This document shows, one piece after another, positions 10,306 to 47,400 of a stretch of 64,000 nt of DNA (position 1 is its first letter; each line of letters opens with the position of its first letter). The stretch lies in sequence record NC_070871.1; one strand, given 5' to 3'. A program made the translations under genes and the position numbers. The stretch comes from Escherichia phage PGN829.1. The notes below the pieces were generated by a model, which was not told where the DNA came from, searched no databases, and saw nothing but the letters and a program-made list of their open reading frames with translations.

Positions 10306-10689
10306 TTAGAAAGTCAGTTTACGAGCATATTTATTCTCGTCTGCTGGGATGTCAGCAGCCTCTGCTTTCACACGACGAAGTTGAACTTGCAGGTTAATGA
10401 TACCTTCTTCACCTGGTTCCAGGTTCTGAGCATATTCGATTAACTGTTCCAGCAAGTCGTTCTGTGCACAACGCATAGCACGGAAGTCAGCATTGCTGCT
10501 ATTAGTAGGCAGTGGTTCCTGAGTATCCAGCGGAATACCAGTAGGCAATGAGATGAATTTCTCATCATCAGAGCCTTCATTAGCTACATAACCAATGTTC
10601 AGCCAGAACTGAGCTTTAGGCTTATCAGCCTTAGCAGTAGAAGTAGCAGCAGCGTTAGATTGACCGAAAGTGAATTTTTGAATAGACAT
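10306..10689 (-). CDS. hypothetical protein
   Basis: Start moved to ATG at 10689 (MSIQKF) with GGAGAG RBS; the longer track ORF would swallow the promoter hairpin region. Confidence 0.4.
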
Positions 10690-10792
10690 TTTGTACTCTC
10701 CAGATTTATGTGATTTACGGGTGAACTCGTCGGTGAGAACACCCAAACAAAAGGATAAAAGTTCAATGATTAGTGGATGCATTTACATCATC

Positions 10793-10811
10793 CATAAGAC
10801 GCGGAGCGTCT
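10793..10811 (-). promoter_or_regulatory. candidate N4-type virion-RNAP hairpin promoter (P-b)
   Basis: Template strand CCATA-AGACGC-GGA-GCGTCT: 6-bp stem, GGA loop, G at -8, template C at predicted +1 (10793). Confidence 0.5.
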
Positions 10812-10816
10812 GGTTT

Positions 10817-11035
10817 TTAAGGCTCAAAGCCAGGTTGTAATTGATAAGGTAATTCAACAACTTTCCAGTATCTATCGTGATATTCTGGAGTGGATTCGTT
10901 GATAGCATCTGCAACCTTTTGTGCAGCTTCTTCACTGTGAAAGTAAGGGAGATTCTCTACGAATTTCTCGTCTGGATAATCCCCATCAAAGTTGTCTGTT
11001 TGTACGATTTTAAACTGAGGCATATCTATCTCCAA
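10817..11035 (-). CDS. acidic small protein (hypothetical)
   Basis: 72 aa, D/E-rich. Confidence 0.4.
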   Translation of the reverse strand: MEIDMPQFKIVQTDNFDGDYPDEKFVENLPYFHSEEAAQKVADAINESTPEYHDRYWKVVELPYQLQPGFEP

Positions 11036-11073
11036 AGTAGATAGTTATCTACTTTTGATTGACTATCTAATGT

Positions 11074-11101
11074 TTATAAAAGGAGACTCCGAAGAGCCTC
11101 C
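11074..11101 (-). terminator. intrinsic terminator
   Basis: Stem ggagactc/gagcctcc (1 mismatch) followed on minus strand by TTTTATAAA. Confidence 0.45.
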
Positions 11102-11109
11102 TAGGTGAC

Positions 11110-11433
11110 TTAGTCTTTAGTCAGGATGTCAATTACTTTGGAATATTCTGCGTTATAGATACGAGCGTTCTCTGAATCCTTGCAGAATTCTTCAATACTT
11201 TTCTTACGCAGAGTCTCAGTCATAGCTGTTTCCTCTGCCAGTTTATTAACAAAGGTATGCATTTCTAATTTAGTACGAATGGCTTGTTTCTCTGCCATAG
11301 TACTTACATATGAATTAAGCATACCTACTGCTTTAGTTGCTGTACCGAATGTATCTGCAACAGTAGTAGCAGCTGAGTTAACAGTACCAAGTAAAGTTCC
11401 TGCGGTCATACGTACAGTAGCGGTAGTAGTCAT
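11110..11433 (-). CDS. hypothetical protein (first gene after P-a)
   Basis: GGAG RBS; about 40 nt downstream of predicted P-a start. Confidence 0.4.
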   Translation of the reverse strand: MTTTATVRMTAGTLLGTVNSAATTVADTFGTATKAVGMLNSYVSTMAEKQAIRTKLEMHTFVNKLAEETAMTETLRKKSIEEFCKDSENARIYNAEYSKVIDILTKD

Positions 11434-11471
11434 GATGATAGCTCCAATAGTTGATGATAGGACGACATGTC

Positions 11472-11490
11472 CATAACATGCGGAGCATGT
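11472..11490 (-). promoter_or_regulatory. candidate N4-type virion-RNAP hairpin promoter (P-a)
   Basis: Template strand CCATA-ACATGC-GGA-GCATGT: 6-bp stem, GGA loop, G at -8, template C at predicted +1 (11472); shares CCATA flank with P-b. Confidence 0.5.
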
Positions 11491-11634
11491 GTAACGTGTA
11501 AGGTGGGGTAGGGTAGTGGCTACACCGTCAACATACCGGGGGGGCTAGTTGAGTGTAAGGGTGTAGCCCCAGCCACAACACTGCTGCTGTACATAGTTAT
11601 GACCAAAATGGTATGCAAAAATATGATAGCTATC

Positions 11635-11973
11635 CTACTTATAAGCAGTTAAATAGGAGGGAGCTTTGTTTATGAAACGTATAGTCCTGAATGAGTTACC
11701 TTCCCTCACCACACTGGCTCTTATTTTTACGGGTAAGAAGATGTGGAAGTAGTCTCCTTCCGGAGCAAGGTAACAATCATGTTCGTTGAGGATAACTATC
11801 TCAGCATTACTGTTATTAAGCAGTTTATGCCCTTGGGCAAAGTTTGCTAACTCTCCAGGTTCCATTATTAGAGTAGGATTACCATAGGGCATAACGTGGA
11901 TGATTGCTTTCTCTGGTTCAGAGGAATAGTGCAGTAAGTCTGTACCATTCATGCCTAAGAGCTTAACGTTCAT
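11635..11973 (-). CDS. small-protein paralog family member (degenerate)
   Basis: Shares the block hhhxPxxE..x.G.hhL......hxhLxE with five neighbours. Confidence 0.4.
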   Translation of the reverse strand: MNVKLLGMNGTDLLHYSSEPEKAIIHVMPYGNPTLIMEPGELANFAQGHKLLNNSNAEIVILNEHDCYLAPEGDYFHIFLPVKIRASVVREGNSFRTIRFINKAPSYLTAYK

Positions 11974-12277
11974 GCTTTAATACCTGTTCAAGAATGCTAT
12001 CCATGTAATAACAGTATGCTTCACTGTTACTACTGTTTACAGGCATACCAATGTAATCAAATACCCATAAGCAGAAGTGGTTTACTTCATGGATAAGTGT
12101 CGGTAAGGGTTCTGAAAAGATACCCATAAGAACCTTATTGCCGGAGTAAGAAGTGAAACCCTTACAACCTTCTATGTCTGGTTCGTACCCTTTGAGCTTC
12201 TTGTACTTTTTTCGGAAGACTTCTCTGTCATTAACTATCTCCAGTTGTACTGGGTATGGGGATGTGTTTATTTTCAT
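11963..12277 (-). CDS. small protein with HExxH motif (possible minimal zinc metallopeptidase or divergent paralog)
   Basis: LIHEVNHFCLWVF contains HEVNH; sits inside the paralog array. Confidence 0.35.
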   Translation of the reverse strand: MKINTSPYPVQLEIVNDREVFRKKYKKLKGYEPDIEGCKGFTSYSGNKVLMGIFSEPLPTLIHEVNHFCLWVFDYIGMPVNSSNSEAYCYYMDSILEQVLKHER

Positions 12278-12558
12278 TGTCTTTCCTTATATACAGGGGT
12301 GTCATCCTCGAAGGATAGGATGTACTTATCTGTATTGAGGTGCCAAGGACTAAAGCTACCTTGCCAGGACATTGGTGTTCCTGGTTCTAGTAAATGTACT
12401 ACTGAATTCTTATTGCATAAGAAAAGTAATCCTTGTAGTTCATGCAAGGACTGTTCGTCTGGAACCAGGATAAGTACATCAGCATCTAGGTTATCTACAT
12501 CTTTATGGAGAATGTAATCCTCCCCATTAGGTTCTGGATAAACTTTACTGATAACCAT
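12274..12558 (-). CDS. small-protein paralog family member
   Basis: VLILVPDEQSLHELQGLLFLCNKNSVVHLLEP. Confidence 0.45.
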   Translation of the reverse strand: MVISKVYPEPNGEDYILHKDVDNLDADVLILVPDEQSLHELQGLLFLCNKNSVVHLLEPGTPMSWQGSFSPWHLNTDKYILSFEDDTPVYKERQ

Positions 12559-12878
12559 TAGAGGCTCTCGTCGCTAGATAAATATGAGGTAGAAGGGTAG
12601 AGGGTAATAAGTCTACCGGTTAGGGTAGTTACTACCATAGGCTCATTCACAGATAGTATGTACACACTAGTGTGTTCTGGTACTTCCACGGAATCTTCTA
12701 TCTTAATAAATTTGATAGGCTGCCCCAACATTAAGCAAGTACCAATGAACACTTCTGCTTCTTCACTTGGCTCATATAGGATGGTGGTAACTCTCTCCCT
12801 ACCTGCCAGGATATTATCCAGCGTATATGGGGATAGATAGCAAGTAGTGGCAAAGCTAATAAGGCAGTACGGGTGCAT
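12558..12878 (-). CDS. small-protein paralog family member (divergent)
   Basis: TTILYEPSEEAEVFIGTCLMLGQPIKFIKIED aligns to the family block. Confidence 0.4.
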   Translation of the reverse strand: MHPYCLISFATTCYLSPYTLDNILAGRERVTTILYEPSEEAEVFIGTCLMLGQPIKFIKIEDSVEVPEHTSVYILSVNEPMVVTTLTGRLITLYPSTSYLSSDESL

Positions 12879-12881
12879 AAC

Positions 12882-13196
12882 TTATTTCCTTACATAGTAG
12901 TAACGGTATTCCTCATTCTCATAATGACTATCCCACTGGTACTCATCAGATACCATCATGAATGGTAGAGCATCATGAGCACTACTAACAGCGTATACTG
13001 ATGGAGGAATGATACATATAACCTTACGGTCACTACCTGCTAAGAATAACTGACCTCTTGCTTCATGGTAGTCCTCTAGAGTAGGAACCAGGATTACACG
13101 TTGTGAGCTACTGTTCATGACTTCTTCTAAAGTGAAGTCATTTGTATACAAAGATTCCCTTTCAGCATAACTGGGGACGGTCATTATGAATTTCAT
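12882..13196 (-). CDS. small-protein paralog family member
   Basis: VILVPTLEDYHEARGQLFLAGSDRKVICIIPP; start moved to internal Met to match family length (track ORF extends to 13259). Confidence 0.4.
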   Translation of the reverse strand: MKFIMTVPSYAERESLYTNDFTLEEVMNSSSQRVILVPTLEDYHEARGQLFLAGSDRKVICIIPPSVYAVSSAHDALPFMMVSDEYQWDSHYENEEYRYYYVRK

Positions 13197-13560
13197 GATT
13201 GATTTTCCTTCCTTTGGGGATAGGTCTGAAGTAAATGGAAAGTGTTTTATTAAAGACATTATGGTCAGCTATCAATTCCCAACCAGGTATTTTATAGAAC
13301 CTAACACCAGGGAAAATCATACTAAAGTCGCTGTAAAAGGAGAGGTCATACACCTTTGGTTCAGTGAGTATCTTAGTATTGAGTTTCAAGTTGGATAAGA
13401 AAAGAGAACCAATAACTTCGTGGGACTCTTCACAATCAGGAAAGAATACTGATTGCCACGGGGTAATGAACTTACTTACTATCTCTGGTTCCCCAAGGTA
13501 GTAAGGTTCTTGATTACGAAGTATTCCAGTAATATCAATATCAAAAGCGTAGATGCTCAT
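13162..13560 (-). CDS. small-protein paralog family member
   Basis: FFPDCEESHEVIGSLFLSNLKLNTKILTEP; GGAGG RBS. Confidence 0.45.
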   Translation of the reverse strand: MSIYAFDIDITGILRNQEPYYLGEPEIVSKFITPWQSVFFPDCEESHEVIGSLFLSNLKLNTKILTEPKVYDLSFYSDFSMIFPGVRFYKIPGWELIADHNVFNKTLSIYFRPIPKGRKINHEIHNDRPQLC

Positions 13561-13575
13561 AATTGCATACCTCCT

Positions 13576-13612
13576 GAAAAAGAAATGGGGTAGAGCCTCT
13601 CGACTCTACCCC
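13576..13612 (-). terminator. hairpin / possible terminator or attenuator
   Basis: 9-bp stem ggggtagag/ctctacccc; minus strand then reads AUUUCUUUUUC immediately before the next RBS. Confidence 0.4.
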
Positions 13613-13760
13613 TTACCGTTTTCAATCACGGGTCAGTTCATCACCCTAGATACATGTGTATCGTTAGCCTACTAGGTAGGAAAGGAGCCGGGTAACCCTG
13701 ACTGTAGAAGTTATTAACTCTTTACGAGTACCGCCACTATCTACTAGGCGGCATGACTAA

Positions 13761-14051
13761 TCACATCGTCACCATCATCCGAACACTGTCTTTTTCTCGT
13801 CTGACGGAGACACTATGAGGTAATTTTGTGAAGAACACAAGAGATGGAATAGACTTTTCTAAAGAGTAAGTTTCTCTTGGTTCTAAGATCTTAATGCCTG
13901 GACGATTTTCTAACAGCATCATCCCAGCTAATTCGTGGTAAGTATCCTCATCGTGGGTAATGATGATATCACCTGATAGAAAGCCAACCTTGGTGTGGTC
14001 TAGCTCAGAGTATTTATCTTCAGAGTCTTGGACTCTCATATAGATTCTCAA
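13761..14051 (-). CDS. small-protein paralog family member
   Basis: IIITHDEDTYHELAGMMLLENRPGIKILEP. Confidence 0.45.
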   Translation of the reverse strand: MRIYMRVQDSEDKYSELDHTKVGFLSGDIIITHDEDTYHELAGMMLLENRPGIKILEPRETYSLEKSIPSLVFFTKLPHSVSVRREKDSVRMMVTM

Positions 14052-14222
14052 AGGTTACTCCTTTTGGGAATAGGGTCATCGGAACATTACATACTATTTA
14101 GTATCATGAACTTTTTCTATATCATGACTAAAGTGTAACTGTATGGTATCGTTTCTTCAAGGGGTATCTCACCCCAAGAAAAGAATCTTCTTTAATAGAC
14201 ATAACTTTGTAGCGAGATAAGT

Positions 14223-14912
14223 ATGAGTGAACTAACTAAGCAGCAGATTGTTAATGCCCTACCTGCTAACTTCAAAAACAGTGTAACCCAGGAGTTGGTG
14301 GACACAATTAACAACATTACCCAAGACCAACTGGTTGCTGAAGCATTCCGTGAAAACTTCATCTCTTACTCTGGAGTTATGAAGGAAGGTAAGTTTAAGA
14401 CACAGGACTACATGAATGCAGTTCAGTATGTGACTTATAAACACATGGGCTACTCAAACAAGGAAGCCTACTTCAAGACATTCCCTAACCGACAAGCAGA
14501 ACTTGTAGCAAGGGGAACCAGTGAGAAAGACATTAGTGCTTACGTGTCTGCTTACCACAGAGGCAAGCTAGTTAACCTCATCATGGAACAAAGTTTGGTT
14601 CCAGTGTGGATTGTGAACCAGGATAATTATCAGAAAGCAATCAACGTTCAGGTTGAACTAATGACCACAGCAGCCAGTGAGAAGGTAAGATGTGATGCAG
14701 CTAACTCTATCCTTACCCACTTGGCTAAACCAAAAGACCAGGTAACAAATATCAATCTGGACTTAAGAGAAAACTCTGGGTTGACTGACCTCAAGGCAAC
14801 ACTTGCTGCATTAGCTGAACAGCAAATTAATGCAATCAATAGTGGTGTACCTACCAAGGAGATTGCTGGTTCTAAACTAGTACGTGCAAATGAGGACATT
14901 ACAGATGTCTGA
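14223..14912 (+). CDS. putative terminase small subunit (N4 gp69-position protein)
   Basis: First gene of late operon, directly upstream of and overlapping terminase large subunit; function inferred from position only. Confidence 0.3.
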   Translation: MSELTKQQIVNALPANFKNSVTQELVDTINNITQDQLVAEAFRENFISYSGVMKEGKFKTQDYMNAVQYVTYKHMGYSNKEAYFKTFPNRQAELVARGTSEKDISAYVSAYHRGKLVNLIMEQSLVPVWIVNQDNYQKAINVQVELMTTAASEKVRCDAANSILTHLAKPKDQVTNINLDLRENSGLTDLKATLAALAEQQINAINSGVPTKEIAGSKLVRANEDITDV

Positions 14913-37029: not shown

Positions 37030-40000
37030 TTGAACAGGAAACATGCTATGTCAACATTTGACCGTCTGGCAGGTTTCGCAGACAGCATCACTAATGCTAA
37101 GCAAGTCGATGTCTCTACTGCAACCTCTCAGAAGCAAGCTGCACAAGGGCAAAGCCCTTTCCAATTAACCCCAGAGAATGCTTACAATCTCCAAACTGGT
37201 CGTGTAGGTAATCTTGGAATTGGTGCATTCGAACCAGGTTCACTTCAGGCAGATTTCACTCAAGCCTCCCCATTAGAAATCCTTAATAAATACGGTAATG
37301 AGCAAGGTCTACAGATTATTAATAGCCGAGCTAATGCTGCTGATGTTGTACGTCAGGACTTATCTAAACAACGTACTAACGCGGAAGCATTTGGTGATAC
37401 TCTTTCTGGTGTTGGTCTTGGTGTTGCTAATACCCTTGGGGGCATTGCTGCTCTTGGTACAGGTCTGGTCAATGATAATGCCGGAGCATCCATTGCTTCC
37501 GGGATGGATTGGCTGAATGAAGGTGTACACAATTTACAGTCTGATGCACTGAATGCTACCCGTAAGGTTGTTCAGAATCAGAACCAGATTTCTGCACAAA
37601 AGAACCAGAAGCTCTATGAAGAAGATATTAAAAATGGGGAGAGCAGTTTGGTTGCCTCCCTGTCTCGCATTGGTCGTGATGCTTTTGATTCTGTTGCTAA
37701 TACACTTGATAATGGTATGGCTGCTACCGATGGGCTGAGTGAAGGTGTTGGTTCTCTCTTTACTGGTGGTCCATTAATTCGTGGTGTATCCGCACTCGGT
37801 AAAGTAATGGTAGGTGGAGATAAAGCCGTTAAAGGTATTACCCTAGCTGCTGAGTTAGGTTCACGTCCTGCACAGATTGCATTGTCTGCTGGTCGTGTTG
37901 CTGCACCTGCTATTGCAATTGGTGGTATGGAAGCTGGTGGTGCATACCAGCAGACTGCTTCTGAAATCATGAAGATGTCCCATCAAGAATTGGCAAGTAA
38001 GTCTCCTGTTTATCAACAACATATCGCTGATGGTTTATCTCCTGATGAAGCACGTCGTCAAACTGCATCTGAAACGGGTATCATTGCTGCTAGCTTAACT
38101 GCTCCAGTTGCTGCTGCTACTGGTCCACTGGTATCTAAGTTTGAACTTAACCCACTTAAGGTAGGTTCACTGGCTGGTGCTGGCTCTAACATGCTTCGTG
38201 AAACCGTAGAAGAAGGTATTCAGTCTGGTACAAGTCAGTTTGCACAGAACAAGGCAATTCAGGGTAATGTAGATGCTAAGCGTGATCTGCTTAAAGGTGT
38301 CGGTGAGCAAGCAGGTCTTGGTGCACTCTATGGCTTCGGTAGTGCTGGTGTTTCTCAGGCTCCTGGTGCAACTGTTAAAGCTGTTGGTGCTTCTGCTGGC
38401 CCTGCTCTTCGTACTACCCTGGCTGGTGCTTCTCTGGTTGGTAGTGCATTAGCAAAAGCTGCTTCTCCTATTACTAACATCCTGGTTCAACGTGGTGAAG
38501 AAGTTGCTAAGCGTAATGAACAAGCATCCCCTGTATCTGATGCCACTGTTAATGCTGCTGCACAAGAAGCTACTGCTCAGGCAGAACAAGCACAAGCAAC
38601 TGTACAGGAAGCAGTAGATGCAATGGATATTTCTCCTGAAGAGAAAGCTGCTGCTACTCAGTATGCTGCTGACTTAACTCAGGCAATGAAGTTTGACCCA
38701 GTAGAGTTAGAGCAAGCTAATCCAGCAATCCGTGAAGCCGTTTCTGGTTCCACTAACCGTGTTGAAGCTATTCAGAAGATGGCTGACCTGGTTAATACTG
38801 CCGAAGACCCTAACGTTCAAATGGAAGCTGCAATCCAGATGTATGACAATATCATGTCTATGGATAGCTTCATTAACCGTGACCCAGGTGCTCTGGCTAA
38901 CCTGGAACAAGGTTCCCCTGCTGCTGCAATCGTTGACCAGTTCTCTGGTCTGATGGCTAACGTTCAGAATACACCTAAAGTACTTCGTGCATTCCGTGCT
39001 ATTCATTCTATGATTCAGGAACAGGCTGAAGCAGGTAAACTGAAAGCTACTGAAGAAGCCAACCAAGCCCAAGCAAACAATATTGCTATGGCTGCTGATA
39101 TGTCTCCAGAAGTACTGGATGCTGATTCAGTGAACATGATTCTGAAACATGCAAGTGAAGGTAAGATTACACTGGGGAATCATCAGCGTGCTGCCCTGCA
39201 ATCGGCTGCTGCCTTGTTACAGGGTGCACGAGAATTTGATGCTAAAGCAGAAGAACTAGGCTTACGTCCTCAAGACATTGTTAGTAAACAGATTAAAACC
39301 GACGAGTCTCGTTCTAATGAAGGTCAGTACTCTGCGTTGCAACATGCTAAACGCATTCGTTCTGCGTACAACTCTGGTAATTTCGATTTGGCTTCCGCTT
39401 ACCTCGACGACTTTATGAAGTTCGCCCAGCACATGCAGAATAAGGTCGGAGCGTTGAATGAGCATCTGATTTCTGGGAATGCGGATAAGAATAAGTCTGT
39501 CCATTATCAGGCTCTTACTCCCTCCCGTGAATGGGTACGTAGTCGTACTGGTCTTGGTGTCAATCCGTATGATACCAAGTCGGTTAAGTTTGCCCAGCAA
39601 GTAGGACTGGAGGCCAAAACCGTAGCTGATATTGCTAACGCACTTGCTACGGCTTACCCGGAGCTTAATGTTTCTCATGTGAAGGTTACTCCATTAGATT
39701 CACGTCTGGACAAGCCTGCTGCCCAGGTAGTTAAAGAGTTCCGTCAAGGTGGTCTTGATGCCACTCAGTCTCAACAGACCAATGAACCAGTGAATCAGGT
39801 TGATGAAACTCCTGCACCAGCGCAAGAGACTACTACTACTGTACAGCCTAAAGCTAAACCAGTGGTAGAAAATAAGACTGTTCCTGTTAAAGAGGCTAGT
39901 TCAAAAGCAGAAGAAGTCTCTACTACTAAGTCTGAAACAGTAGATGCTACCCTCACCAATGAGGATACCACTCAAAAAGTAGCTGAAACTAAAACGGAAA

Positions 40001-43000
40001 TGGAAACAGTTTTCCCTGTCTATAACAATGACAAGACACCGAACCAGTTCCTGAAATCATTTACCCTGCCGGAAGAACCTAAGTCTCGCACCATTGGTTC
40101 TGAATCCCCTTTGACTGATATTAAGCAAGCACTGTCTTCTACTGCACGCTTTGAAGCATTCACTCAAAAAGAAAATAACGCTCTCACAAGTGATGTGATT
40201 AAGCGTTATCAGGACTTAATGGGCTTTGGTGAAACTCTGAAGACTACTCTGTCTGATCGTCTGGCTAAGTTTCTTGCTAATAAGAACGTTGGTAAACGCT
40301 TTGCAGAAGGCACAGAGGCTAACCGTTGGGTAGGTGGTAAGTTACTTAATATCGTAGAGAAAGACGGAGACACCTTTAAGTTCAATGACCAGTTGTTAGA
40401 GACTGCTGTACTTGCTGGTCTGCAATGGCGACTGACTGCTACACAGAATGCTGCTGTTAAAGACATGAAAGATGTAGCTGCTATTACTGGTGTAGAGGCA
40501 TCTCTGTTACCTGAAGGTATTCTGGCTGACTTCGAGAATGCTCAGACTCTGGTTGAAGCTACTAACTCACTGGCTCAAAAGATTGAATCTTACTGGGGTT
40601 TGAATCGCAATCCAAATGCACCACTGGGTTATACCAAAGGTATCCCAATGGCAATGGCTACGGAGATTCTGTCTTCTTTCATTGAGATGGGTGAAGTTAA
40701 AGAATCTATGCTGGATGTGTCTGAGTTTGACCCAGACTCTAATAAGACCGTCGGTCTGTATACCATTGAGAAGCTGGATGATAACGATGCCATTAACAAG
40801 TTCCCTACTGCTATCGAGGAAGCTGTTCTCGTAGAACCAGAAGAGAAAATGTACTTTGGTGATGATATTCCTTCCGTGGCTCAAACTCAGTTACGTAACC
40901 CTGCTGTTAAGAATACCCCAGAGCAGAAAGCTGCTCTTAAAGCAGAACAGGCTACCGAGTTCCGTGTACACATGCCGATGGTTAACTTCTATGAAGCATT
41001 AGGTCGTGACAACATTCTGGAACTGATGGGTGCTGGTACTCTTAATCCTGAACTGCTGAACGTGAACACTGCTAAGTCACTGGAGGGTAAAAACCTGTCA
41101 GTGTCTATGGCATATGATTCCCTGTTCGGTGTAATCAACCAGTTACAGGAACAGGAGAATGGTCTGGATACGCCTATTCACTATGGTTACAACATGACCC
41201 GTGTAGGTCGTATGCAGATGTTAGGTAAGAACAACCCACAATCCAGTAAACTGGTTCGTGAAGCAATTCTGCCAACCTTCTCTACTATTGACTTGAGTAA
41301 TGAAAATAGCCAAACATTCTCTGACTTCCAGCTAGGACTGGCTCAGGCATTGGGTATCAAGGTACATAACATGTCCCGTGAAGCTATGTCTGAAAAGTTG
41401 ACCAAGGCTCTGGAAGGTAATCTGAAACCTGCCGTTGATATGGTGGTTGAGTTTGATAAGTCTGGTCACTTACCAGCTAATGCAGTGGATATTCTGAAAA
41501 CATCTCTGGGCGGCGATAAATCATTCGTAGCTCTTATGGCTCTTATGGAATATGCCCGTTACCTGAACAGTGATGACCGTGCCAACTTTAATACCCCTCT
41601 GTACGTTGAAGCCGATGGTGTAACTAACGGACCAATCAACGCAATGGTATTAATGACCGGTGGTAAGTTCACTTCAGACTGGGTTAAGAATACTGCTAAA
41701 GGTGGCTTGTTCTTCGGTAAAGCTGGTAAGACTATGAATGAACATCGTTCACAGGATGACAGTGTTGACCTGTATGAAGCATCTACCAATGGTCTGCAAC
41801 AAGCACTTAATGAGTTACGTACTACTTACCGTAACAACGTTCCGGTTATGAACCAAATGAATCATCTTCAGAAGTTAATGGACCTGTTTATTAAAGACTT
41901 TAACCTGAATGAAGACGGTACTCTGGACCTGAAACGTGGTATCGCTAAAAACCCACTGACTATTACCATCTATGGTTCTGGTGCTCGTGGTATTGCTGGC
42001 AAGATGGTTAGTGCAATTACTGACACCATCTATGAACGCTTCAGTGATGTTCTGCAAGCTCGTGCTGCTGACCCTAGCATTTCCCCAGCTATGGCAATGT
42101 TTGGTAAGGAGGCTGCGTCTGAGGCTGATGCTCAGGCTATGCTGGATACTTTCCTTACTTCTATGGAAGCACTGACTGGTAATGTTCCAGTTATGCGTAA
42201 AGGTGAACTGTCTATTCAACAGGTAGAAGGTGCTCTGACTGGTAAGTTAGACCCTCAGAAGTTTACCGTATCAGGAAATGCTCTGAAGAACTTACAAGAG
42301 AACATGCTTCACCTGTTCGTTGAACCAATGCGTACTGGTATCCGTAATACTGTTGGTGAAGGTCTGATGCATTCTACTGAGAACTTGCAGAAGGCTACCC
42401 AGATTCAGTCACTGGTATTGCAGGATATGTTCCAGCAACGTGTCCAGGAGAAGCTAGCAGAAAAAGAAAAAGACCCAACATGGAAAAAGGGTGATTTCTT
42501 AACACAGAAAGAACTGAATGAAATCCAGGAATCATTATCCCCACTAGCTCCAATGATTGAGACTGGTTCACAGACTTTCTACATTGCTGGCAGTGAAAAT
42601 ACTGATGTTGCTAACCAAGTTCTGGCTACCAACTTAGATGATCGTATGCGTGTGCCAATGAGCATCTATGCTCCTTCACAGGCAGGTGTTGCAGGTATTC
42701 CTTTTATGACCATTGGTACTGGCGATGGCATGATGATGCAGACCCTTTCTACTATGAAAGGTGCTCCGAAGAATACCCTGAAAATCTTTGATGGTATGAA
42801 CATTGGTATCAACAACATCACTGATGCAAGTCGTAAAGCTAATGAGGCTGTATACACTTCCTGGCAGGGTAACCCTATCAAGAATGTCTACGACTCCTTC
42901 TCTAAGTTCATGAAGAATGTAGACTTCAGCAAACTGTCTGATGAAACCAAACAGGCTATCGCTAAATCTGCTCTGGAATATGACCAGCGTGAAGGTGCTA

Positions 43001-46000
43001 CCGATGACCTGTTACGTGTTGGTGCTGAACAGATTGAACGTAACCTGCGTAATATTGCTCTGGGTGTAGATATTCGTCACAAAGTAATGAACCAGGTACA
43101 GACTACTGTTGACCAGATGGCTGCTGTTGGTGCTCCTTATGTGAACAACGGTAAAATCTCTCTGGAAGGTCTGACCGTAGACCAACAAGTAGCTAAGCTA
43201 AATGAACTGTTCGATGCTGAATTAAACAAACGTCGTGATGCAGTACGTGCTGCTAAAGTAGAACCAGTGAAAGAAGTGCCAGCAATGGAACAGGTTGGTC
43301 GTGTACTGAAGTCTGGTGTACGCCTACTGTCTAATACTGCTATCTCTAAGCTGGCTAAAGAGATGTCTCCGGAACAGCAAGCAGTACTGAAAGAAGTACA
43401 GAAATCCCTTGCTGCTAAAGACTATAAGGTTGTTTACGGTACACCTTCCCAACTGGATGCTTATGCTATTGAGAAGAATATTACTCGCCCAGCACCAGAA
43501 GATATTGAAGCTGCTGAAGCTGGTAATGCGTATGGTTGGACTAACTTTGAAGATAAGACCATCTACTTAGTTACCCCTTCCTTAGAGACTCTGGTTCATG
43601 AATTGGTGCATGCTTCTACTTTTGAATCTGTACTGGCTCACTATGAGGGTACTCCTAATGAAGCGGTCCAGAACATTGAAGACCTGATGAACCAGTTCCG
43701 TGCTCTGGATGTTAAGGATGAATCCCCGGCAGTTCGGGAAGCATATGCAGATGCTCTTAATACTATTAACGGTCATTTATCTAATGGCTTTATTGAGCCA
43801 GCAATGGCTAAAGCTGCTGCACTGAATGAGTACATGGCATGGGGTTTAACCAACCGTGAACTGATTAGTAAGCAGAAGAAAACCACTGCACTTAAGACTA
43901 TGGTTCAGGCTGTATATGAAGCAATTAAACGTCTGGTATTCGGGCGTAAGAAAGCACCAGCTAATGCAGATGATATGTTCTCTGGCTTACTGTTTAACTC
44001 GTCCGTAGTTATGCGTGGGCAAGCTCCTACTGCTGCTGTAGTCAAAGATACTACTCTGTTCCATAACAAAACGTATGGTGACAATACTCGTCTGGAAGAG
44101 CTAGGGAAAACCTTCGATAAACTGATTACTGACTACATTGGTTCTGAACCAGTACAGCAAGTAATTCGTAAAGGTAAGTTCTCTGATGCAGTGGTTAATG
44201 CGACTAAAGTAACTCGTGATGTTCAGGCTCATGGCTTCACTATGAATATGCAGGAACAACGTCTCTTTACTAACATTGTTGCTGCTCTGGCTACTGAGGC
44301 TGCTATTAATCCTGCTGCTCTGGCTCGTGCGCAGGAATACTACACACATGTTACTAAGAACCTGACCGTTGAGTCATTCATGACTGACCCAGATAGTACT
44401 AACCCTGCTGACCGTTACTATGCACAGCAGAAGTTCGATACCATCATGGGTGCTAACAACATTGAGTTTGATTCACAAGGTCGTTCCTCCTTACTGCCTA
44501 CCTTTATTGGTCTGGCGATGGTAAGTGAAGAGGTACGTAAAGTGCTGGCTGATATTCCAGTTATGAAAGTAGACAAGAAATCTGGCAATACCGCTGATGC
44601 AATGCTGACTAACATCGGTACTGCTGCAATGGCTAGTCTGAATGCTCGTGTAGCAGGAGATACTAAAGCTACCAACGTACAGGAAGGTATGGATGCACTG
44701 GCTCAGACAATCATGCAGACCAGTCTTAATGCACAATCCTTCTATGATTCCGTTGCTACTCCTACGGGTAATGCTATTGATCGTGCTAACCAGTATCTGG
44801 TGGACTCTATTGATGTACTGTCTACCCGTGCTTTAGAAGGTGCTCGTGAAGTTGCAGCTAATACCAAGAACCCGTTGGTTAAAGGTGCTGCCCATGCTGC
44901 ACAATTAATAGCTGCTATTGCTACAGAGAAGAATGGTGCAATCGTAGCCGAAGGTGTTATGGCTGCAATGAACCAAGGTAAAGTATGGCAACCCTTTCAC
45001 GATCTGGTTAATGACTTAACTGGTCGTACTAAGAGTAATGCTTCTGTATATGATTTGATTAAGGCAGTGCGTGCCCAGGTACAGGCTGACCGTCAACAGT
45101 TCCGTGAACATCTGCCCACCACTATCGCATCTAAGTTCAGCCGTAAGCTGACTAATGATGAGTGGAAAGCAATGCATACCGGTATGGGTAAAACCGACTT
45201 AGCTGTTCTGCGTGACACTATGTCTCTGGCTGAAATTCGTGACCTGCTGACTGACCAGAAGATTGTTGACCGTGAGGTTAATAAACTGGAAGCAGATTTG
45301 CAGAAACAAGCTGGTCGTAACTGGCCTTTGATTAACCGTAAATCTAAGCAACTGGCTCAGTACATGATTAATGGAACAGTTGGTAATAACCTGCTGCGTA
45401 ATGCTACAGCAATCTCTCGTATGCTGGGTGAACGTCAGGCTGCACGTTCTACTGTAGACGTAGCTCAACTGGATAAACTGATTACTCTGTATGCACTGGA
45501 AGCAATGAGTAAAACTGACCGCGAGGTGTTATCTTCACTGGCTCAGACAGAGATTGAAGGCATGGACTTCGCTACTTCTTATCTGGTTGGTCAGCGTAAA
45601 GATGAAATGGCTAAAGCCAAATCTGATACTCGTGCAACTCTGAACCAGTACAAAGGGTATATTCCTGGTGAGACTAAACAGGGTGTTAACTTGATAGTTG
45701 CTGAAGATAGTCAGTTTGCTGATTTGATTGAGAAGTCCTATGTACGTCTGGGTACTTATCAGGGTAGCTCTGCTAATCGTGGTCCAGCACGTAGCTACTA
45801 CTTTGCACCGGTACAGGCACAGGCTCCATTCTCGCAAGGTATCTTACAGAACGTTCGCAATACTGCTGGTGGTGTAGACCTTGGTACAGGCTTTACGATG
45901 GGTACAATGGTAGCTGGTCGTATCACTGACAAGCCTTCTGTAGACCGTATCACTAAAGCACTGGCTCGCGGTGAACGTGGTAATGAACCACTGCTGCCTG

Positions 46001-47400
46001 TATATGATGATAAAGGCAATGTGGTTGCTTATGAGCAATCTATTGACCCTAACATGCTGAAGCACATTGAGGGTGAGAACCATCTCGCTCGTGCAATCGG
46101 TGTATGGCGTGGTCGTCAGGTAGAGGAAGCTAAGGCTCAGCGTTTCAACGATATGCTGATTGAGAACCTGCATAGCATGTATGAGAACGACATTAAGATG
46201 TCTACCTCTAATAAGTCACAGTACGTTAACCTTCTTGGTTCTAAACTGGATCCAGTAACTGCTGATGCTCTTAAACTGATGAACAGTGAAACTCGTCAGA
46301 AAGCAGAAAGTCTGTTTGGTGAAGGTGAACTGTGGGTACGTCGTGACATGCTGAATGATGCACTGGGTTATCGTGCAGCTTCTGTAGGTGATGCCTGGTC
46401 TGGTAACTCTCGTTGGTCACCGGAAACATTGGATACCTTCAAGAAAGCTATGTTGGGTGTATTTGGCAACCGTGCTTACAAATATGTAATGGGTGGTGAG
46501 AATCTGGTTCAGAACTTAGTTAAAGAAGCCAAAACTCTGATTGTAGTTAAATCAGTAGTTGTGCCTGCTGTTAACTTCCTGGCTAACCTTTACCAGATGG
46601 TCGGTCGTGGTGTACCTGTTAAGAACATTACTAAGAGTATTCCACAGAAGACTGCTGAGATTAATCAGTACCTGAAATCTCGTCTGCGTCAGGTAGATGC
46701 AGAAGCGGAATTACGTGCAGCTACTAACCCGAACCAGATTCGTAAACTTAAAGCTGAGATTCAGTCCATCACTGATAGCCATAAGCGTATGAGTATCTGG
46801 CCTCTGTTAGAAGCTGGTGAGTTTTCTTCAATTGCAGATGCTGGTATTGGTCGTGATGACATCCTGATTACTGAAGGTAAACTTCATGAATACATGGATA
46901 AGCTGGCTGATAAGTTACCTAAGTCTGTACGTAATGCTGGACGTTATGCACTTATCACCAAAGATACTGCTCTGTTCCAGGGTATCCAGAAGACGGTTGA
47001 GTACTCTGACTTTATTGCTAAAGCAATCATCTATGATGATTTGACTCAGCGTAAAGGTAAGACTCGTGAAGAAGCACTTGGACGTGTAACGGAAGAGTTC
47101 ATTAACTATGACCGTCTGCCTGGTCGCTTCCGTGGGTATATGGAAAGTGTTGGTCTTATGTGGTTCTATAACTTTAAGATTCGTTCTGCAAAAATTGCAG
47201 TATCCATGATTCGTAACAACCCGGTACACGCAGCTATGGCTATGTTGGCTCCAACTCCTACCATGTTTGGTAATGTTGGTTTACCTATTCAGGACAACAT
47301 CTTCAGTATTGCTGCACAAGGCAATCTCGGTTACTCCTGGGGCTTCGGTCAGGGACTTCGTGCCCATAACCTTAACCCTTGGCTCAATCTAGCTAACTAA
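37030..47400 (+). CDS. virion-encapsidated RNA polymerase (N4 gp50-like vRNAP)
   Basis: 3456-aa ORF; central single-subunit RNAP motif B (RGIAKNPLTITIYGSG); size and position match N4 vRNAP. Confidence 0.85.
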   Translation: MNRKHAMSTFDRLAGFADSITNAKQVDVSTATSQKQAAQGQSPFQLTPENAYNLQTGRVGNLGIGAFEPGSLQADFTQASPLEILNKYGNEQGLQIINSRANAADVVRQDLSKQRTNAEAFGDTLSGVGLGVANTLGGIAALGTGLVNDNAGASIASGMDWLNEGVHNLQSDALNATRKVVQNQNQISAQKNQKLYEEDIKNGESSLVASLSRIGRDAFDSVANTLDNGMAATDGLSEGVGSLFTGGPLIRGVSALGKVMVGGDKAVKGITLAAELGSRPAQIALSAGRVAAPAIAIGGMEAGGAYQQTASEIMKMSHQELASKSPVYQQHIADGLSPDEARRQTASETGIIAASLTAPVAAATGPLVSKFELNPLKVGSLAGAGSNMLRETVEEGIQSGTSQFAQNKAIQGNVDAKRDLLKGVGEQAGLGALYGFGSAGVSQAPGATVKAVGASAGPALRTTLAGASLVGSALAKAASPITNILVQRGEEVAKRNEQASPVSDATVNAAAQEATAQAEQAQATVQEAVDAMDISPEEKAAATQYAADLTQAMKFDPVELEQANPAIREAVSGSTNRVEAIQKMADLVNTAEDPNVQMEAAIQMYDNIMSMDSFINRDPGALANLEQGSPAAAIVDQFSGLMANVQNTPKVLRAFRAIHSMIQEQAEAGKLKATEEANQAQANNIAMAADMSPEVLDADSVNMILKHASEGKITLGNHQRAALQSAAALLQGAREFDAKAEELGLRPQDIVSKQIKTDESRSNEGQYSALQHAKRIRSAYNSGNFDLASAYLDDFMKFAQHMQNKVGALNEHLISGNADKNKSVHYQALTPSREWVRSRTGLGVNPYDTKSVKFAQQVGLEAKTVADIANALATAYPELNVSHVKVTPLDSRLDKPAAQVVKEFRQGGLDATQSQQTNEPVNQVDETPAPAQETTTTVQPKAKPVVENKTVPVKEASSKAEEVSTTKSETVDATLTNEDTTQKVAETKTEMETVFPVYNNDKTPNQFLKSFTLPEEPKSRTIGSESPLTDIKQALSSTARFEAFTQKENNALTSDVIKRYQDLMGFGETLKTTLSDRLAKFLANKNVGKRFAEGTEANRWVGGKLLNIVEKDGDTFKFNDQLLETAVLAGLQWRLTATQNAAVKDMKDVAAITGVEASLLPEGILADFENAQTLVEATNSLAQKIESYWGLNRNPNAPLGYTKGIPMAMATEILSSFIEMGEVKESMLDVSEFDPDSNKTVGLYTIEKLDDNDAINKFPTAIEEAVLVEPEEKMYFGDDIPSVAQTQLRNPAVKNTPEQKAALKAEQATEFRVHMPMVNFYEALGRDNILELMGAGTLNPELLNVNTAKSLEGKNLSVSMAYDSLFGVINQLQEQENGLDTPIHYGYNMTRVGRMQMLGKNNPQSSKLVREAILPTFSTIDLSNENSQTFSDFQLGLAQALGIKVHNMSREAMSEKLTKALEGNLKPAVDMVVEFDKSGHLPANAVDILKTSLGGDKSFVALMALMEYARYLNSDDRANFNTPLYVEADGVTNGPINAMVLMTGGKFTSDWVKNTAKGGLFFGKAGKTMNEHRSQDDSVDLYEASTNGLQQALNELRTTYRNNVPVMNQMNHLQKLMDLFIKDFNLNEDGTLDLKRGIAKNPLTITIYGSGARGIAGKMVSAITDTIYERFSDVLQARAADPSISPAMAMFGKEAASEADAQAMLDTFLTSMEALTGNVPVMRKGELSIQQVEGALTGKLDPQKFTVSGNALKNLQENMLHLFVEPMRTGIRNTVGEGLMHSTENLQKATQIQSLVLQDMFQQRVQEKLAEKEKDPTWKKGDFLTQKELNEIQESLSPLAPMIETGSQTFYIAGSENTDVANQVLATNLDDRMRVPMSIYAPSQAGVAGIPFMTIGTGDGMMMQTLSTMKGAPKNTLKIFDGMNIGINNITDASRKANEAVYTSWQGNPIKNVYDSFSKFMKNVDFSKLSDETKQAIAKSALEYDQREGATDDLLRVGAEQIERNLRNIALGVDIRHKVMNQVQTTVDQMAAVGAPYVNNGKISLEGLTVDQQVAKLNELFDAELNKRRDAVRAAKVEPVKEVPAMEQVGRVLKSGVRLLSNTAISKLAKEMSPEQQAVLKEVQKSLAAKDYKVVYGTPSQLDAYAIEKNITRPAPEDIEAAEAGNAYGWTNFEDKTIYLVTPSLETLVHELVHASTFESVLAHYEGTPNEAVQNIEDLMNQFRALDVKDESPAVREAYADALNTINGHLSNGFIEPAMAKAAALNEYMAWGLTNRELISKQKKTTALKTMVQAVYEAIKRLVFGRKKAPANADDMFSGLLFNSSVVMRGQAPTAAVVKDTTLFHNKTYGDNTRLEELGKTFDKLITDYIGSEPVQQVIRKGKFSDAVVNATKVTRDVQAHGFTMNMQEQRLFTNIVAALATEAAINPAALARAQEYYTHVTKNLTVESFMTDPDSTNPADRYYAQQKFDTIMGANNIEFDSQGRSSLLPTFIGLAMVSEEVRKVLADIPVMKVDKKSGNTADAMLTNIGTAAMASLNARVAGDTKATNVQEGMDALAQTIMQTSLNAQSFYDSVATPTGNAIDRANQYLVDSIDVLSTRALEGAREVAANTKNPLVKGAAHAAQLIAAIATEKNGAIVAEGVMAAMNQGKVWQPFHDLVNDLTGRTKSNASVYDLIKAVRAQVQADRQQFREHLPTTIASKFSRKLTNDEWKAMHTGMGKTDLAVLRDTMSLAEIRDLLTDQKIVDREVNKLEADLQKQAGRNWPLINRKSKQLAQYMINGTVGNNLLRNATAISRMLGERQAARSTVDVAQLDKLITLYALEAMSKTDREVLSSLAQTEIEGMDFATSYLVGQRKDEMAKAKSDTRATLNQYKGYIPGETKQGVNLIVAEDSQFADLIEKSYVRLGTYQGSSANRGPARSYYFAPVQAQAPFSQGILQNVRNTAGGVDLGTGFTMGTMVAGRITDKPSVDRITKALARGERGNEPLLPVYDDKGNVVAYEQSIDPNMLKHIEGENHLARAIGVWRGRQVEEAKAQRFNDMLIENLHSMYENDIKMSTSNKSQYVNLLGSKLDPVTADALKLMNSETRQKAESLFGEGELWVRRDMLNDALGYRAASVGDAWSGNSRWSPETLDTFKKAMLGVFGNRAYKYVMGGENLVQNLVKEAKTLIVVKSVVVPAVNFLANLYQMVGRGVPVKNITKSIPQKTAEINQYLKSRLRQVDAEAELRAATNPNQIRKLKAEIQSITDSHKRMSIWPLLEAGEFSSIADAGIGRDDILITEGKLHEYMDKLADKLPKSVRNAGRYALITKDTALFQGIQKTVEYSDFIAKAIIYDDLTQRKGKTREEALGRVTEEFINYDRLPGRFRGYMESVGLMWFYNFKIRSAKIAVSMIRNNPVHAAMAMLAPTPTMFGNVGLPIQDNIFSIAAQGNLGYSWGFGQGLRAHNLNPWLNLAN

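What the first reader, a model, noticed from the sequence alone, without database searches (positions are those of the whole stretch)
11491..11634. Candidate position of the physical genome ends
In N4 the first vRNAP promoter lies a few hundred bp inside the left end. Here P-a is preceded by a 145-bp non-coding stretch with a G7 run and a 9-bp inverted repeat (ggctacacc ... ggtgtagcc), and the genes beyond it (the paralog array) would then sit at the opposite genome end. The other candidate, the divergent gap between early and late blocks at 14052-14222, has no GGA hairpin. The window may therefore be a circularly permuted assembly with collapsed terminal repeats near here.
Basis: inference. 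Interest (0 to 1): 0.4.

Follow-up and report, generated by a model that had tools for sequence, protein, structure and literature searches.

The report
Left genome end of N4-like phage
The flagged stretch contains the spot where the linear DNA of this N4-like (G7C-type) coliphage begins. The assembly has merged its roughly 400-base terminal repeat into one copy, which is ordinary, already published biology for this phage group.

Summary

- **What the window is:** a Gamaleyavirus (G7C/N4-like, Schitoviridae) genome, cut so that its physical ends lie inside the sequence.
- **Left end:** I aligned the window to relatives with mapped termini. These are N4, G7C (Sanger run-off), IME11 (read-start pile-ups), Mimir124 and four UE phages (PhageTerm), and 24-32N and KP8 (repeats present in their records). 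The left end maps to window 11576 ±3 on the minus strand, inside the flagged 11491-11634.
- **Inner repeat boundary:** this is the right genome end. It maps to about 11175, with minor sites at about 11166 and 11188, so the collapsed direct terminal repeat is about 402 bp (11175-11576).
- **What the repeat contains:** the G7 run, the 9-bp inverted repeat, the N4 P1-type vRNAP hairpin promoter (11477-11489) and 259 bp of gene 1.
- **The rival site:** the gap at 14052-14222 matches N4's gp69/gp70 divergent region and is not an end.
- **Caveats:** there are no reads for this phage, and G7C itself is annotated with a 1160-bp repeat. The inverted repeat is not conserved in KP8 and does not fold better than shuffled sequence.

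Interest is low.

The parts
11573..11579 (-). Predicted left physical end of the virion DNA. This is the 5' end of the top strand (the window minus strand), most likely at 11576, reading 5'-GTGGCTGGGGCTACACCC...
   Evidence: Mapped through the alignment: IME11 read-start peaks, the Mimir124 and 24-32N repeat starts, the G7C repeat start, and the U1G and St11Ph5 record starts. The N4 record boundary aligns here too.
11175..11576 (-). Predicted direct terminal repeat of about 402 bp, present once in this assembly (collapsed).
   Evidence: Exact terminal duplications of 402 bp in Mimir124 and 24-32N and 404 bp in KP8. IME11 is reported at 401 bp from read starts, and UE-S5a, S5b, M3 and M6 at 401 bp by PhageTerm. 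All map to these coordinates. There is no second copy in the window.
11166..11188 (+). Predicted cluster of right-end cut sites: a main site at 11175-11177 and minor sites at 11166 and 11188. It includes the conserved TTCTGCAAGGAT motif (11187-11176 on the minus strand, the F-C-K-D codons of gene 1).
   Evidence: IME11 forward read starts of 486x, 101x, 94x, 92x, 88x and 81x map to 11175, 11166, 11177, 11173, 11188 and 11176. Record boundaries of Bp4, Uz-1 and VTCCBPA_322 (11166), KKP 3715 (11188), and UE phages, PBM-2, PBM-3 and KP8 (11175-11177) were computed. Motif conservation is shown.
It would drive minus-strand transcription into gene 1 and lies 88-100 nt from the left end.
   Evidence: The flanks are nearly identical to the N4 hairpin GTTGC-TTC-GCAAC at N4 92-104. 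The homologous site in KP8 is annotated 'early promoter'. The fold has z = -2.5.
11518..11568 (.). The 9-bp inverted repeat GGCTACACC / GGTGTAGCC (arms 11518-11526 and 11560-11568), at genome positions 9-17 and 51-59.
   Evidence: It is kept as 8 bp in N4, shifted to 7 bp in G7C, degraded in two IMG/VR relatives and absent in KP8.
11538..11544 (+). G7 run, which reads as C7 on the genome's top strand at positions 33-39.
   Evidence: It is the only G or C run of 7 or more in the window. The matching run is C7 in G7C, KP8, Mimir124 and 24-32N, and C9 in N4. It is C6 in U1G and 6-8 in the IMG/VR relatives.
11489..11565 (-). Cluster of TACAC repeats. Direct copies lie at 11561-65, 11553-57, 11496-500 and 11489-93 (genome positions 12, 20, 77, 84), and one inverted copy lies at 11521-25.
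   Evidence: This is the densest TACAC cluster in the 64-kb window (5 in 92 nt, against 0.18 expected). The four direct copies sit at conserved positions in N4, G7C and KP8.
11577..11640 (-). Conserved non-coding block just outside the repeat. It is the end of the right-arm unique DNA and abuts the left-end cut in a concatemer.
   Evidence: It is conserved in all Gamaleyavirus relatives, even where the upstream gene differs (24-32N, St11Ph5). It is recognisable by eye in the N4 and KP8 sequences.
11110..11433 (-). Gene 1, the homologue of N4 gp1. Its first 259 nt lie inside the repeat.
   Evidence: 66% identity to N4 gp1. It is annotated gp1 in G7C, St11Ph5 and 24-32N.
11635..11973 (-). Last gene of the right arm of the genome.
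   Evidence: It matches the last CDS of the U1G record and sits where the last right-arm genes of 24-32N, G7C and Mimir124 sit. Its stop lies 58 nt before the mapped left end, the same spacing as in G7C within 1 nt.

Best explanation
The flagged stretch is the junction between the two ends of a linear N4-type phage genome, seen in a circularly permuted assembly that holds one copy of the terminal repeat.

- **Layout:** in virion DNA the top strand (the window minus strand) starts at about 11576 with 5'-GTGGCTGGGGCTACACC. The same roughly 402 bp (11576 down to about 11175) is repeated at the far right end, after the gp70/gp71.x genes at 14051-11635.
- **Contents of the repeat:** the conserved left-terminal module (TACAC repeats, C7 run, inverted repeat), the P1-type hairpin promoter for the virion RNA polymerase, and the first 259 nt of gene 1.
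- **Mechanism, inferred from what is published for N4 and T7-type phages and not shown here:** replication yields concatemers with one repeat per junction. The terminase cuts precisely at the left site and less precisely about 400 bp further in, inside the conserved TTCTGCAA(A/G)GAT of gene 1. The repeat is duplicated during packaging. After injection, the virion RNA polymerase starts at the P1 hairpin about 90 nt from the left end.
For: - **Taxonomy and synteny:** the closest records are Gamaleyavirus. gp1, gp69 and gp70 homology to N4 gives the same gene order relative to the ends.
- **Left end:** six mapped or deposited termini fall within 11573-11579, drawing.
- **Right boundary:** repeats of 401-404 bp in IME11, Mimir124 and 24-32N, KP8 and four UE phages all map to about 11175. 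About 14 database records begin or end at 11166-11188 and about 10 at 11568-11576 (coordinates).
- **N4 comparison:** the N4 left terminus aligns base by base with the same motifs at the same offsets, and the last bases of the N4 record align to 11583-11577.
- **Copy number:** only one copy of the repeat is in the window.
Against: - No sequencing reads or virion DNA exist for this particular phage, so every position is transferred by homology (83-96% identity across this region).
- G7C, the type species, is annotated with a 1160-bp stretch that 'contains terminal repeat'. A boundary at the matching distance upstream of gp2 would fall near 10878 in this window.
- Several record starts (U1G, St11Ph5 and others) may simply copy the G7C convention and are not independent evidence.
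- The Bp4 record calls the genome 'circularly permutated'.
- The terminase mechanism and the role of the conserved motifs are inferred, not demonstrated.
Confidence: 0.88

Rival explanations
1. The left end is as mapped, but the terminal repeat is long, as annotated for G7C (1160 bp there). In this window it would run from 11575 to about 10878, just upstream of the P2 promoter and gp2, rather than about 402 bp.
For: The G7C record carries an exact 1160-bp duplication annotated 'contains terminal repeat'. PMC11640937 says G7C's ends were verified by Sanger run-off.
Against: - At least eight other relatives, including another genus (KP8), have 401-404 bp repeats ending at the homologous TTCTGCAA(A/G)GAT site. 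N4 is cited at 390-440 bp.
- At that site the window reads GGATTC, as U1G and St11Ph5 do. The phages with mapped 401-402 bp repeats read AGATTC or GGATTTC there. G7C alone reads GACCC.
Confidence: 0.08
2. The genome has no fixed ends. It would be packaged by a headful mechanism and be circularly permuted, so the flagged stretch would be only an intergenic region with a promoter.
For: The Bp4 record note says 'circularly permutated genome', and several records are deposited as circular.
Against: - IME11 shows sharp read-start peaks at exactly two sites 401 bp apart, at over 100 times the average frequency.
- PhageTerm calls fixed short repeats in five relatives, and G7C run-off sequencing is cited.
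- N4 ends are reported as defined.
- Bp4's own record start coincides with a minor IME11 terminus at 11166.
Confidence: 0.02
3. The physical ends lie in the divergent gap at 14052-14222, between the early-side and late-side gene blocks.
For: It is a strand-switch region with no ORF on either strand across most of it (14052-14191).
Against: - It is flanked by homologues of N4 gp69 and gp70 (78% and 34% identity). In N4, G7C and U1G these lie internal to the right end, followed by more genes.
- It has no GGA hairpin.
- No related record with a mapped terminus or terminal repeat places it there.
Confidence: 0.01
4. The 9-bp inverted repeat works as a single-strand DNA hairpin, for example to prime replication at the left end or as a structured terminase signal, rather than being one inverted copy among the TACAC repeats.
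For: - The arms are conserved in N4 (8 bp) and most Gamaleyavirus.
- G7C keeps a shifted 7-bp pairing, TACACCC/GGGTGTA.
- The terminal GTGGCT can also pair with AGCCAC at genome positions 56-61, so the very end can be base-paired.
Against: - Folding energies are not better than shuffles (z between -0.5 and -1.75).
- There are no true compensatory changes. The right arm is degraded to 6-8 bp in two IMG/VR relatives and 24-32N, and is absent in KP8, which still has a 404-bp repeat and the same end.
Confidence: 0.15

Closest known systems
Coliphage N4 genome termini (Ohmori, Haynes & Rothman-Denes 1988, as cited in PMC3896407, PMC5557969 and PMC6027278)
   Same: - The terminal sequence architecture matches: GGGGCTACAC, a C-run, GTGTAGCC, CTACCCCACCTT, ACACGTTACAC, then the P1 hairpin, at the same offsets from the end.
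- gp1 starts about 145-155 nt from the end.
- The repeat is about 400 bp and ends in the TTCTGCAAAGAT region of gp1.
- The gp70-72-type genes sit at the right end.
   Different: - N4 has a C9 run rather than C7, a hairpin loop TTC rather than TCC (top strand), and a 2-nt indel at the extreme end.
- N4's right ends are reported to spread over 390-440 bp. In the nearest relative with read data (IME11) the spread is about 22 bp with one dominant site.
- 3' overhangs are reported for N4; they cannot be assessed here.
Gamaleyavirus termini: IME11 (read-start analysis), Mimir124 and UE-S5a/S5b/M3/M6 (PhageTerm), G7C (Sanger run-off)
   Same: Identity is 87-96% through this region. The terminal bases GTGGCTGGGGCTACACC are identical, the 401-402 bp repeat is the same, and so is the right-cut motif.
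   Different: - G7C is annotated with 1160 bp.
- U1G has a 29-nt insertion, carrying an extra hairpin, upstream of P1.
- The window's phage is not itself in the phage collection: no record covers at least 80% of 10500-13000.
T7-type short direct terminal repeats (the class PhageTerm assigns to these phages)
   Same: Fixed ends, a short exact direct repeat, one repeat per concatemer junction, and an early promoter close to the end that enters the cell first.
   Different: - No sequence relationship to T7 was looked for or seen.
- N4-type right ends are heterogeneous.
- The first promoter is a DNA hairpin read by a virion-carried polymerase, and the repeat ends inside a coding gene.

Membership tests
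N4-like (Schitoviridae, Enquatrovirinae) genome terminus with short direct terminal repeat | Sequence homology of the putative end to an experimentally mapped N4-like left terminus. | tested here: met
   The alignment with N4, G7C, IME11, Mimir124, 24-32N and KP8 termini places the end at 11573-11579.
N4-like (Schitoviridae, Enquatrovirinae) genome terminus with short direct terminal repeat | Gene order: gp1 and the early genes lie immediately inside the left end, and gp70/gp71-type genes lie immediately inside the right end. | tested here: met
   The gp1 ATG is 143 nt from the mapped end, against 144 nt in G7C and 153 nt in N4. gp69 and gp70 homologues lie at 14223-14912 and 13761-14051.
N4-like (Schitoviridae, Enquatrovirinae) genome terminus with short direct terminal repeat | A direct terminal repeat of about 400 bp whose inner boundary lies at the homologous site in gp1. 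| tested here: inconclusive
   The boundary motif is present at 11176-11187 and the relatives' boundaries map to 11175-11177. The window holds only one copy, so the repeat cannot be seen directly, and G7C is annotated with 1160 bp.
N4-like (Schitoviridae, Enquatrovirinae) genome terminus with short direct terminal repeat | Read-start pile-ups and doubled coverage at the ends, or run-off or restriction evidence on virion DNA of this phage. | not testable with these tools
   No reads or virion DNA are available for this phage. The only such evidence comes from relatives.
N4-like (Schitoviridae, Enquatrovirinae) genome terminus with short direct terminal repeat | 3' protruding single-strand ends, with a unique left end and heterogeneous right ends. 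| not testable with these tools
   This is known for N4 from the literature. IME11 read starts suggest one dominant right site plus minor ones at about 10-nt steps.
N4 vRNAP early promoter (hairpin promoter, P1 type) | A 5-7 bp stem with a 3-nt loop on the template strand, with conserved flanks, upstream of early genes on the correct strand. | tested here: met
   catgc-GGA-gcatg lies at 11477-11489 on the + (template) strand. Its flanks ACACGTTACA and TTATGGACATGT match those around N4 P1. Two more GGA hairpins in a shared CCA(U/A)AA context lie at 10798 and 6110. KP8 annotates the homologous site as an early promoter. Transcription was not tested.
Headful (pac) packaging with circular permutation | No fixed termini, with ends distributed around the genome. 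| tested here: not met
   Relatives show two sharp termini 401 bp apart and exact terminal duplications in their records. This was not tested on this phage's own reads.

The most novel reading that the evidence does not exclude
The conserved non-coding DNA around the cut may be the still-undefined recognition signal of the N4-type packaging machinery. It has two parts. Inside the end there are two pairs of YTACAC repeats about 65 bp apart, flanking a C7-C9 run, with an optional inverted copy. Outside the repeat there is the roughly 60-bp block at 11577-11640. The right cut would be specified separately by TTCTGCAA(A/G)GAT inside gene 1, so that a coding sequence doubles as the repeat boundary. 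G7C's GACCC variant at that site could then explain its anomalous 1160-bp repeat.
Probability: 0.25. Interest if true: 0.35.

Novelty: already known. Interest (0 to 1): 0.12.

Why it matters
Knowing the true ends has three practical uses:
- the genome can be re-oriented and its full length stated (add about 402 bp to the collapsed assembly);
- gene 1 and promoter P1 are then known to be present twice per virion DNA;
- the paralogue array is placed at the right end.

It adds no new biology. The termini of N4, G7C, IME11, Mimir124 and others are published and nearly identical in sequence here. The only mildly new points are comparative: the conserved TACAC layout, the conserved right-cut motif within gp1 across three genera, and the conserved block just outside the repeat. 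These could guide mutational mapping of the N4-type packaging signal.

Tried and rejected
- **Hairpin function of the inverted repeat:** single-strand DNA folds of the terminal 72-75 nt of the window, N4 and G7C are not better than shuffles. The alignment of relatives shows no compensatory changes, and KP8 lacks the right arm. A structural role is therefore not supported.
- **Known RNA families:** the Rfam scan of 11000-12000 gave only one sub-threshold chance hit.
- **Sigma-70 promoters and terminators:** the scan of 10700-12000 found no more promoter-like sites than shuffles. One minus-strand site (TTAACT-18-TATCAT, 11652-11623) overlaps the conserved block outside the repeat, but it is unproven.
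- **Second repeat copy:** I looked for a second copy of the repeat in the window and found none.
- **The window's own record:** I looked in the phage collection and found none. The best match is U1G at 99.4%, but only for 11575-13000.
- **Primary paper:** I tried to read Kulikov et al. 2012 to see how G7C's 1160-bp repeat was defined, but it is not held.
- **Shared cut motif:** I compared the left and right cut contexts by eye. Both cuts follow (A/G)TT, which is too weak to claim.
- **IMG/VR scan:** the scan for TTATGGACATGTYGTCC returned 19 loci. Only about 9 are true relatives, and the rest are chance matches.

Full report
**What is in the sequence**

The flagged interval lies in a 201-nt ORF-free stretch (11434-11634) between two minus-strand ORFs, 11110-11433 and 11635-11973.
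- The G7 run is at 11538-11544 and is the only G or C homopolymer of 7 or more in the 64-kb window.
- The perfect 9-bp inverted repeat GGCTACACC / GGTGTAGCC is at 11518-11526 and 11560-11568.
- A 9-bp inverted repeat is not rare: 4.7% of 144-nt tiles of the window contain one. The terminal region does not fold better than shuffled sequence (z between -0.5 and -1.75).

**What the window is**

BLAST against phage records returns 60 and 82 hits. They are Gamaleyavirus (G7C-like) coliphages and related Klebsiella phages of Schitoviridae, subfamily Enquatrovirinae. The closest is U1G, at 99.4% over 11575-13000.

Gene order matches N4 when the window is read on its minus strand.
- ORF 11110-11433 is gp1 (66% identity to N4 gp1).
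- ORF 14223-14912 is gp69 (78%).
- ORF 13761-14051 is gp70 (34%).
- The 3456-aa ORF at 37030-47400 is the size of the virion RNA polymerase that defines the group.
- The ORFs at 11635-13560 occupy the position of the gp71.x genes that close the right arm of the G7C, U1G, Mimir124 and St11Ph5 records.

**Where the ends are**

Several relatives have mapped or deposited termini.
- G7C's record carries an exact duplication annotated 'contains terminal repeat' at 1-1160 and 71758-72917, with gp1 at 145-468. PMC11640937 states that G7C's ends were verified by Sanger run-off and that Mimir124's PhageTerm left end agrees with it.
- Mimir124 and 24-32N carry exact 402-bp terminal duplications.
- KP8, from a different genus (Kaypoctavirus), carries a 404-bp duplication.
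- Four UE phages have 401-bp repeats by PhageTerm.
- For IME11, Li et al. 2014 list the read-start frequencies (PMC3896407 Table 3): 486x at 62722 forward, and 240x, 180x and 102x at 63123, 63124 and 63122 reverse, 401 bp apart.

I aligned all of these to the window and converted the positions to window coordinates.
- **Left end:** IME11 at 11576, 11577, 11575 and 11579; Mimir124 at 11576; 24-32N at 11576; G7C at 11575; the U1G record start at 11574; the St11Ph5 record start at 11573.
- **Inner repeat boundary (the right genome end):** IME11's main peak at 11175; Mimir124 at 11176; 24-32N at 11175.
- **Minor right-end sites:** IME11's minor forward peaks map to 11166, 11173, 11176, 11177 and 11188.

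From the coordinates, and assuming no indels:
- the records of PBM-2, PBM-3, UE-S5a, UE-S5b, UE-M3, UE-M6 and KP8 begin or end at 11175-11177;
- Bp4, Uz-1 and VTCCBPA_322 begin at 11166;
- KKP 3715 begins at 11188;
- PD38, PhAPEC7, ShWW44 and SP5M begin at 11568-11575.

Some of these record starts may follow convention rather than measurement. The independent experimental anchors are N4, G7C, IME11, Mimir124 and the UE phages.

One point of orientation matters. Li et al. call the 62722 end 'left' in their record's orientation. In N4 orientation it is the right end.

**Comparison with N4 itself**

The first 104 nt of N4 align motif by motif with the window's minus strand starting at 11576. The order of elements is:
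1. GGGGCTACAC(C);
2. TTACAC;
3. a C-run (C9 in N4, C7 here);
4. GTGTAGCC;
5. CTACCCCACCTT;
6. (G)TACACGTTACAC;
7. the hairpin, which is GTTGC-TTC-GCAAC in N4 and CATGC-TCC-GCATG here;
8. TTATGGACATGT.

The last bases of the N4 record (...CAGTATT) align to window 11583-11577 (...CAGTGTT). The N4 record boundary therefore falls at 11577|11576, within a 2-nt indel.

The promoter is 88-100 nt from the end in the window and 92-104 nt in N4, not a few hundred bp.

**Anatomy of the terminal module**

- **TACAC repeats.** Four direct copies lie on the top strand at genome positions 12, 20, 77 and 84, and one inverted copy lies at 52. This is the densest TACAC cluster in the window: 5 in 92 nt against 0.18 expected.
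- **Conservation of the repeats.** The four direct copies and the C-run keep their positions in N4, G7C and KP8. The inverted copy is shifted in G7C, degraded in two IMG/VR relatives and absent in KP8. The inverted repeat is therefore not an essential hairpin.
- **Right boundary.** It falls in a conserved TTCTGCAA(A/G)GAT, the F-C-K-D codons of gp1, at window 11187-11176. The same holds in IME11, Mimir124, 24-32N and KP8, and N4 has the motif at 400-411. G7C alone reads GACCC there and is the one phage annotated with a 1160-bp repeat. That link is only a correlation.
- **Block outside the repeat.** The roughly 60 nt at 11577-11640 are conserved even where the upstream gene is different (24-32N, St11Ph5), and are recognisable by eye in N4 and KP8.

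**Mechanism**

*Shown by homology:*
- a fixed left end at about 11576;
- a repeat of about 402 bp;
- a P1-type promoter and the 5' part of gene 1 inside the repeat.

*Inferred from published knowledge of N4 and T7-class phages:*
- concatemers carry one repeat per junction;
- the terminase cuts precisely on the left and less precisely on the right;
- the repeat is duplicated during packaging;
- the injected virion polymerase starts at the P1 hairpin.

The roles of the TACAC repeats, the C-run and the outside block as recognition signals are hypotheses.

**Rivals**

- **A G7C-type long repeat:** cannot be excluded without reads (about 8%).
- **Headful packaging with circular permutation:** suggested by the Bp4 record note, but contradicted by the sharp termini in relatives.
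- **Ends in the gap at 14052-14222:** excluded by synteny.

**Verdict**

The biology is already known for N4 and Gamaleyavirus, so interest is low.

Noticed in passing
window 10798-10810 and 6110-6122 (+ strand): Two more GGA-loop hairpins, GACGC-GGA-GCGTC and GCTGC-GGA-GCAGC, share a CCA(U/A)AA flank with the P1 hairpin. They are likely the P2 and P3 vRNAP early promoters. P2 sits 16-28 nt upstream of the gp2 (RNAP1 subunit A) start.
   Followed up: partly
window 11489-11565: Five TACAC motifs (four direct, one inverted) form the densest cluster of this pentamer in the 64-kb window. The positions of the direct copies are conserved in N4, G7C and KP8.
   Followed up: partly
window 11176-11187 (minus strand TTCTGCAAGGAT): The repeat's inner boundary lies in a motif inside gene 1 that is conserved across three genera. 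G7C has a variant (GACCC) and is the only relative annotated with a 1160-bp repeat.
   Followed up: partly
window 11577-11640: A conserved non-coding block lies just outside the repeat. It carries a -10-like box, which reads TATCAT here and TATAAT in N4, G7C and St11Ph5, pointing towards the left end, and a twice-occurring ATAGCTAT-type palindrome. Its function is unknown.
   Followed up: partly
L002 (U1G) 42-70, between window-equivalent positions 11504 and 11505: U1G has a 29-nt insertion that contains an extra 7-bp-stem, 3-nt-loop hairpin (AGTGTGC-TCT-GCACACT) just upstream of P1. It may be an additional hairpin promoter.
   Followed up: no
window 12274-14051 (minus strand): Four small ORFs (12274-12558, 12882-13259, 13162-13560, 13761-14051) are weak paralogues of one another.
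   Followed up: partly
window 11070-11105 (minus strand): Right after the gene 1 stop lies the stem-loop GGAGGCTC-TTCG-GAGTCTCC followed by TTTTAT. It looks like a terminator for the first early transcript, and the consensus scan did not flag it.
   Followed up: no
PMC3896407 Table 3 versus L007 (IME11 record): The published IME11 terminal reads are printed as GTGGCTGGGGCTACACCCGG..., but the deposited record reads GTGGCTGGGGCTACACCCTT... at the same position. This is probably a typographical error or a record revision.
   Followed up: no
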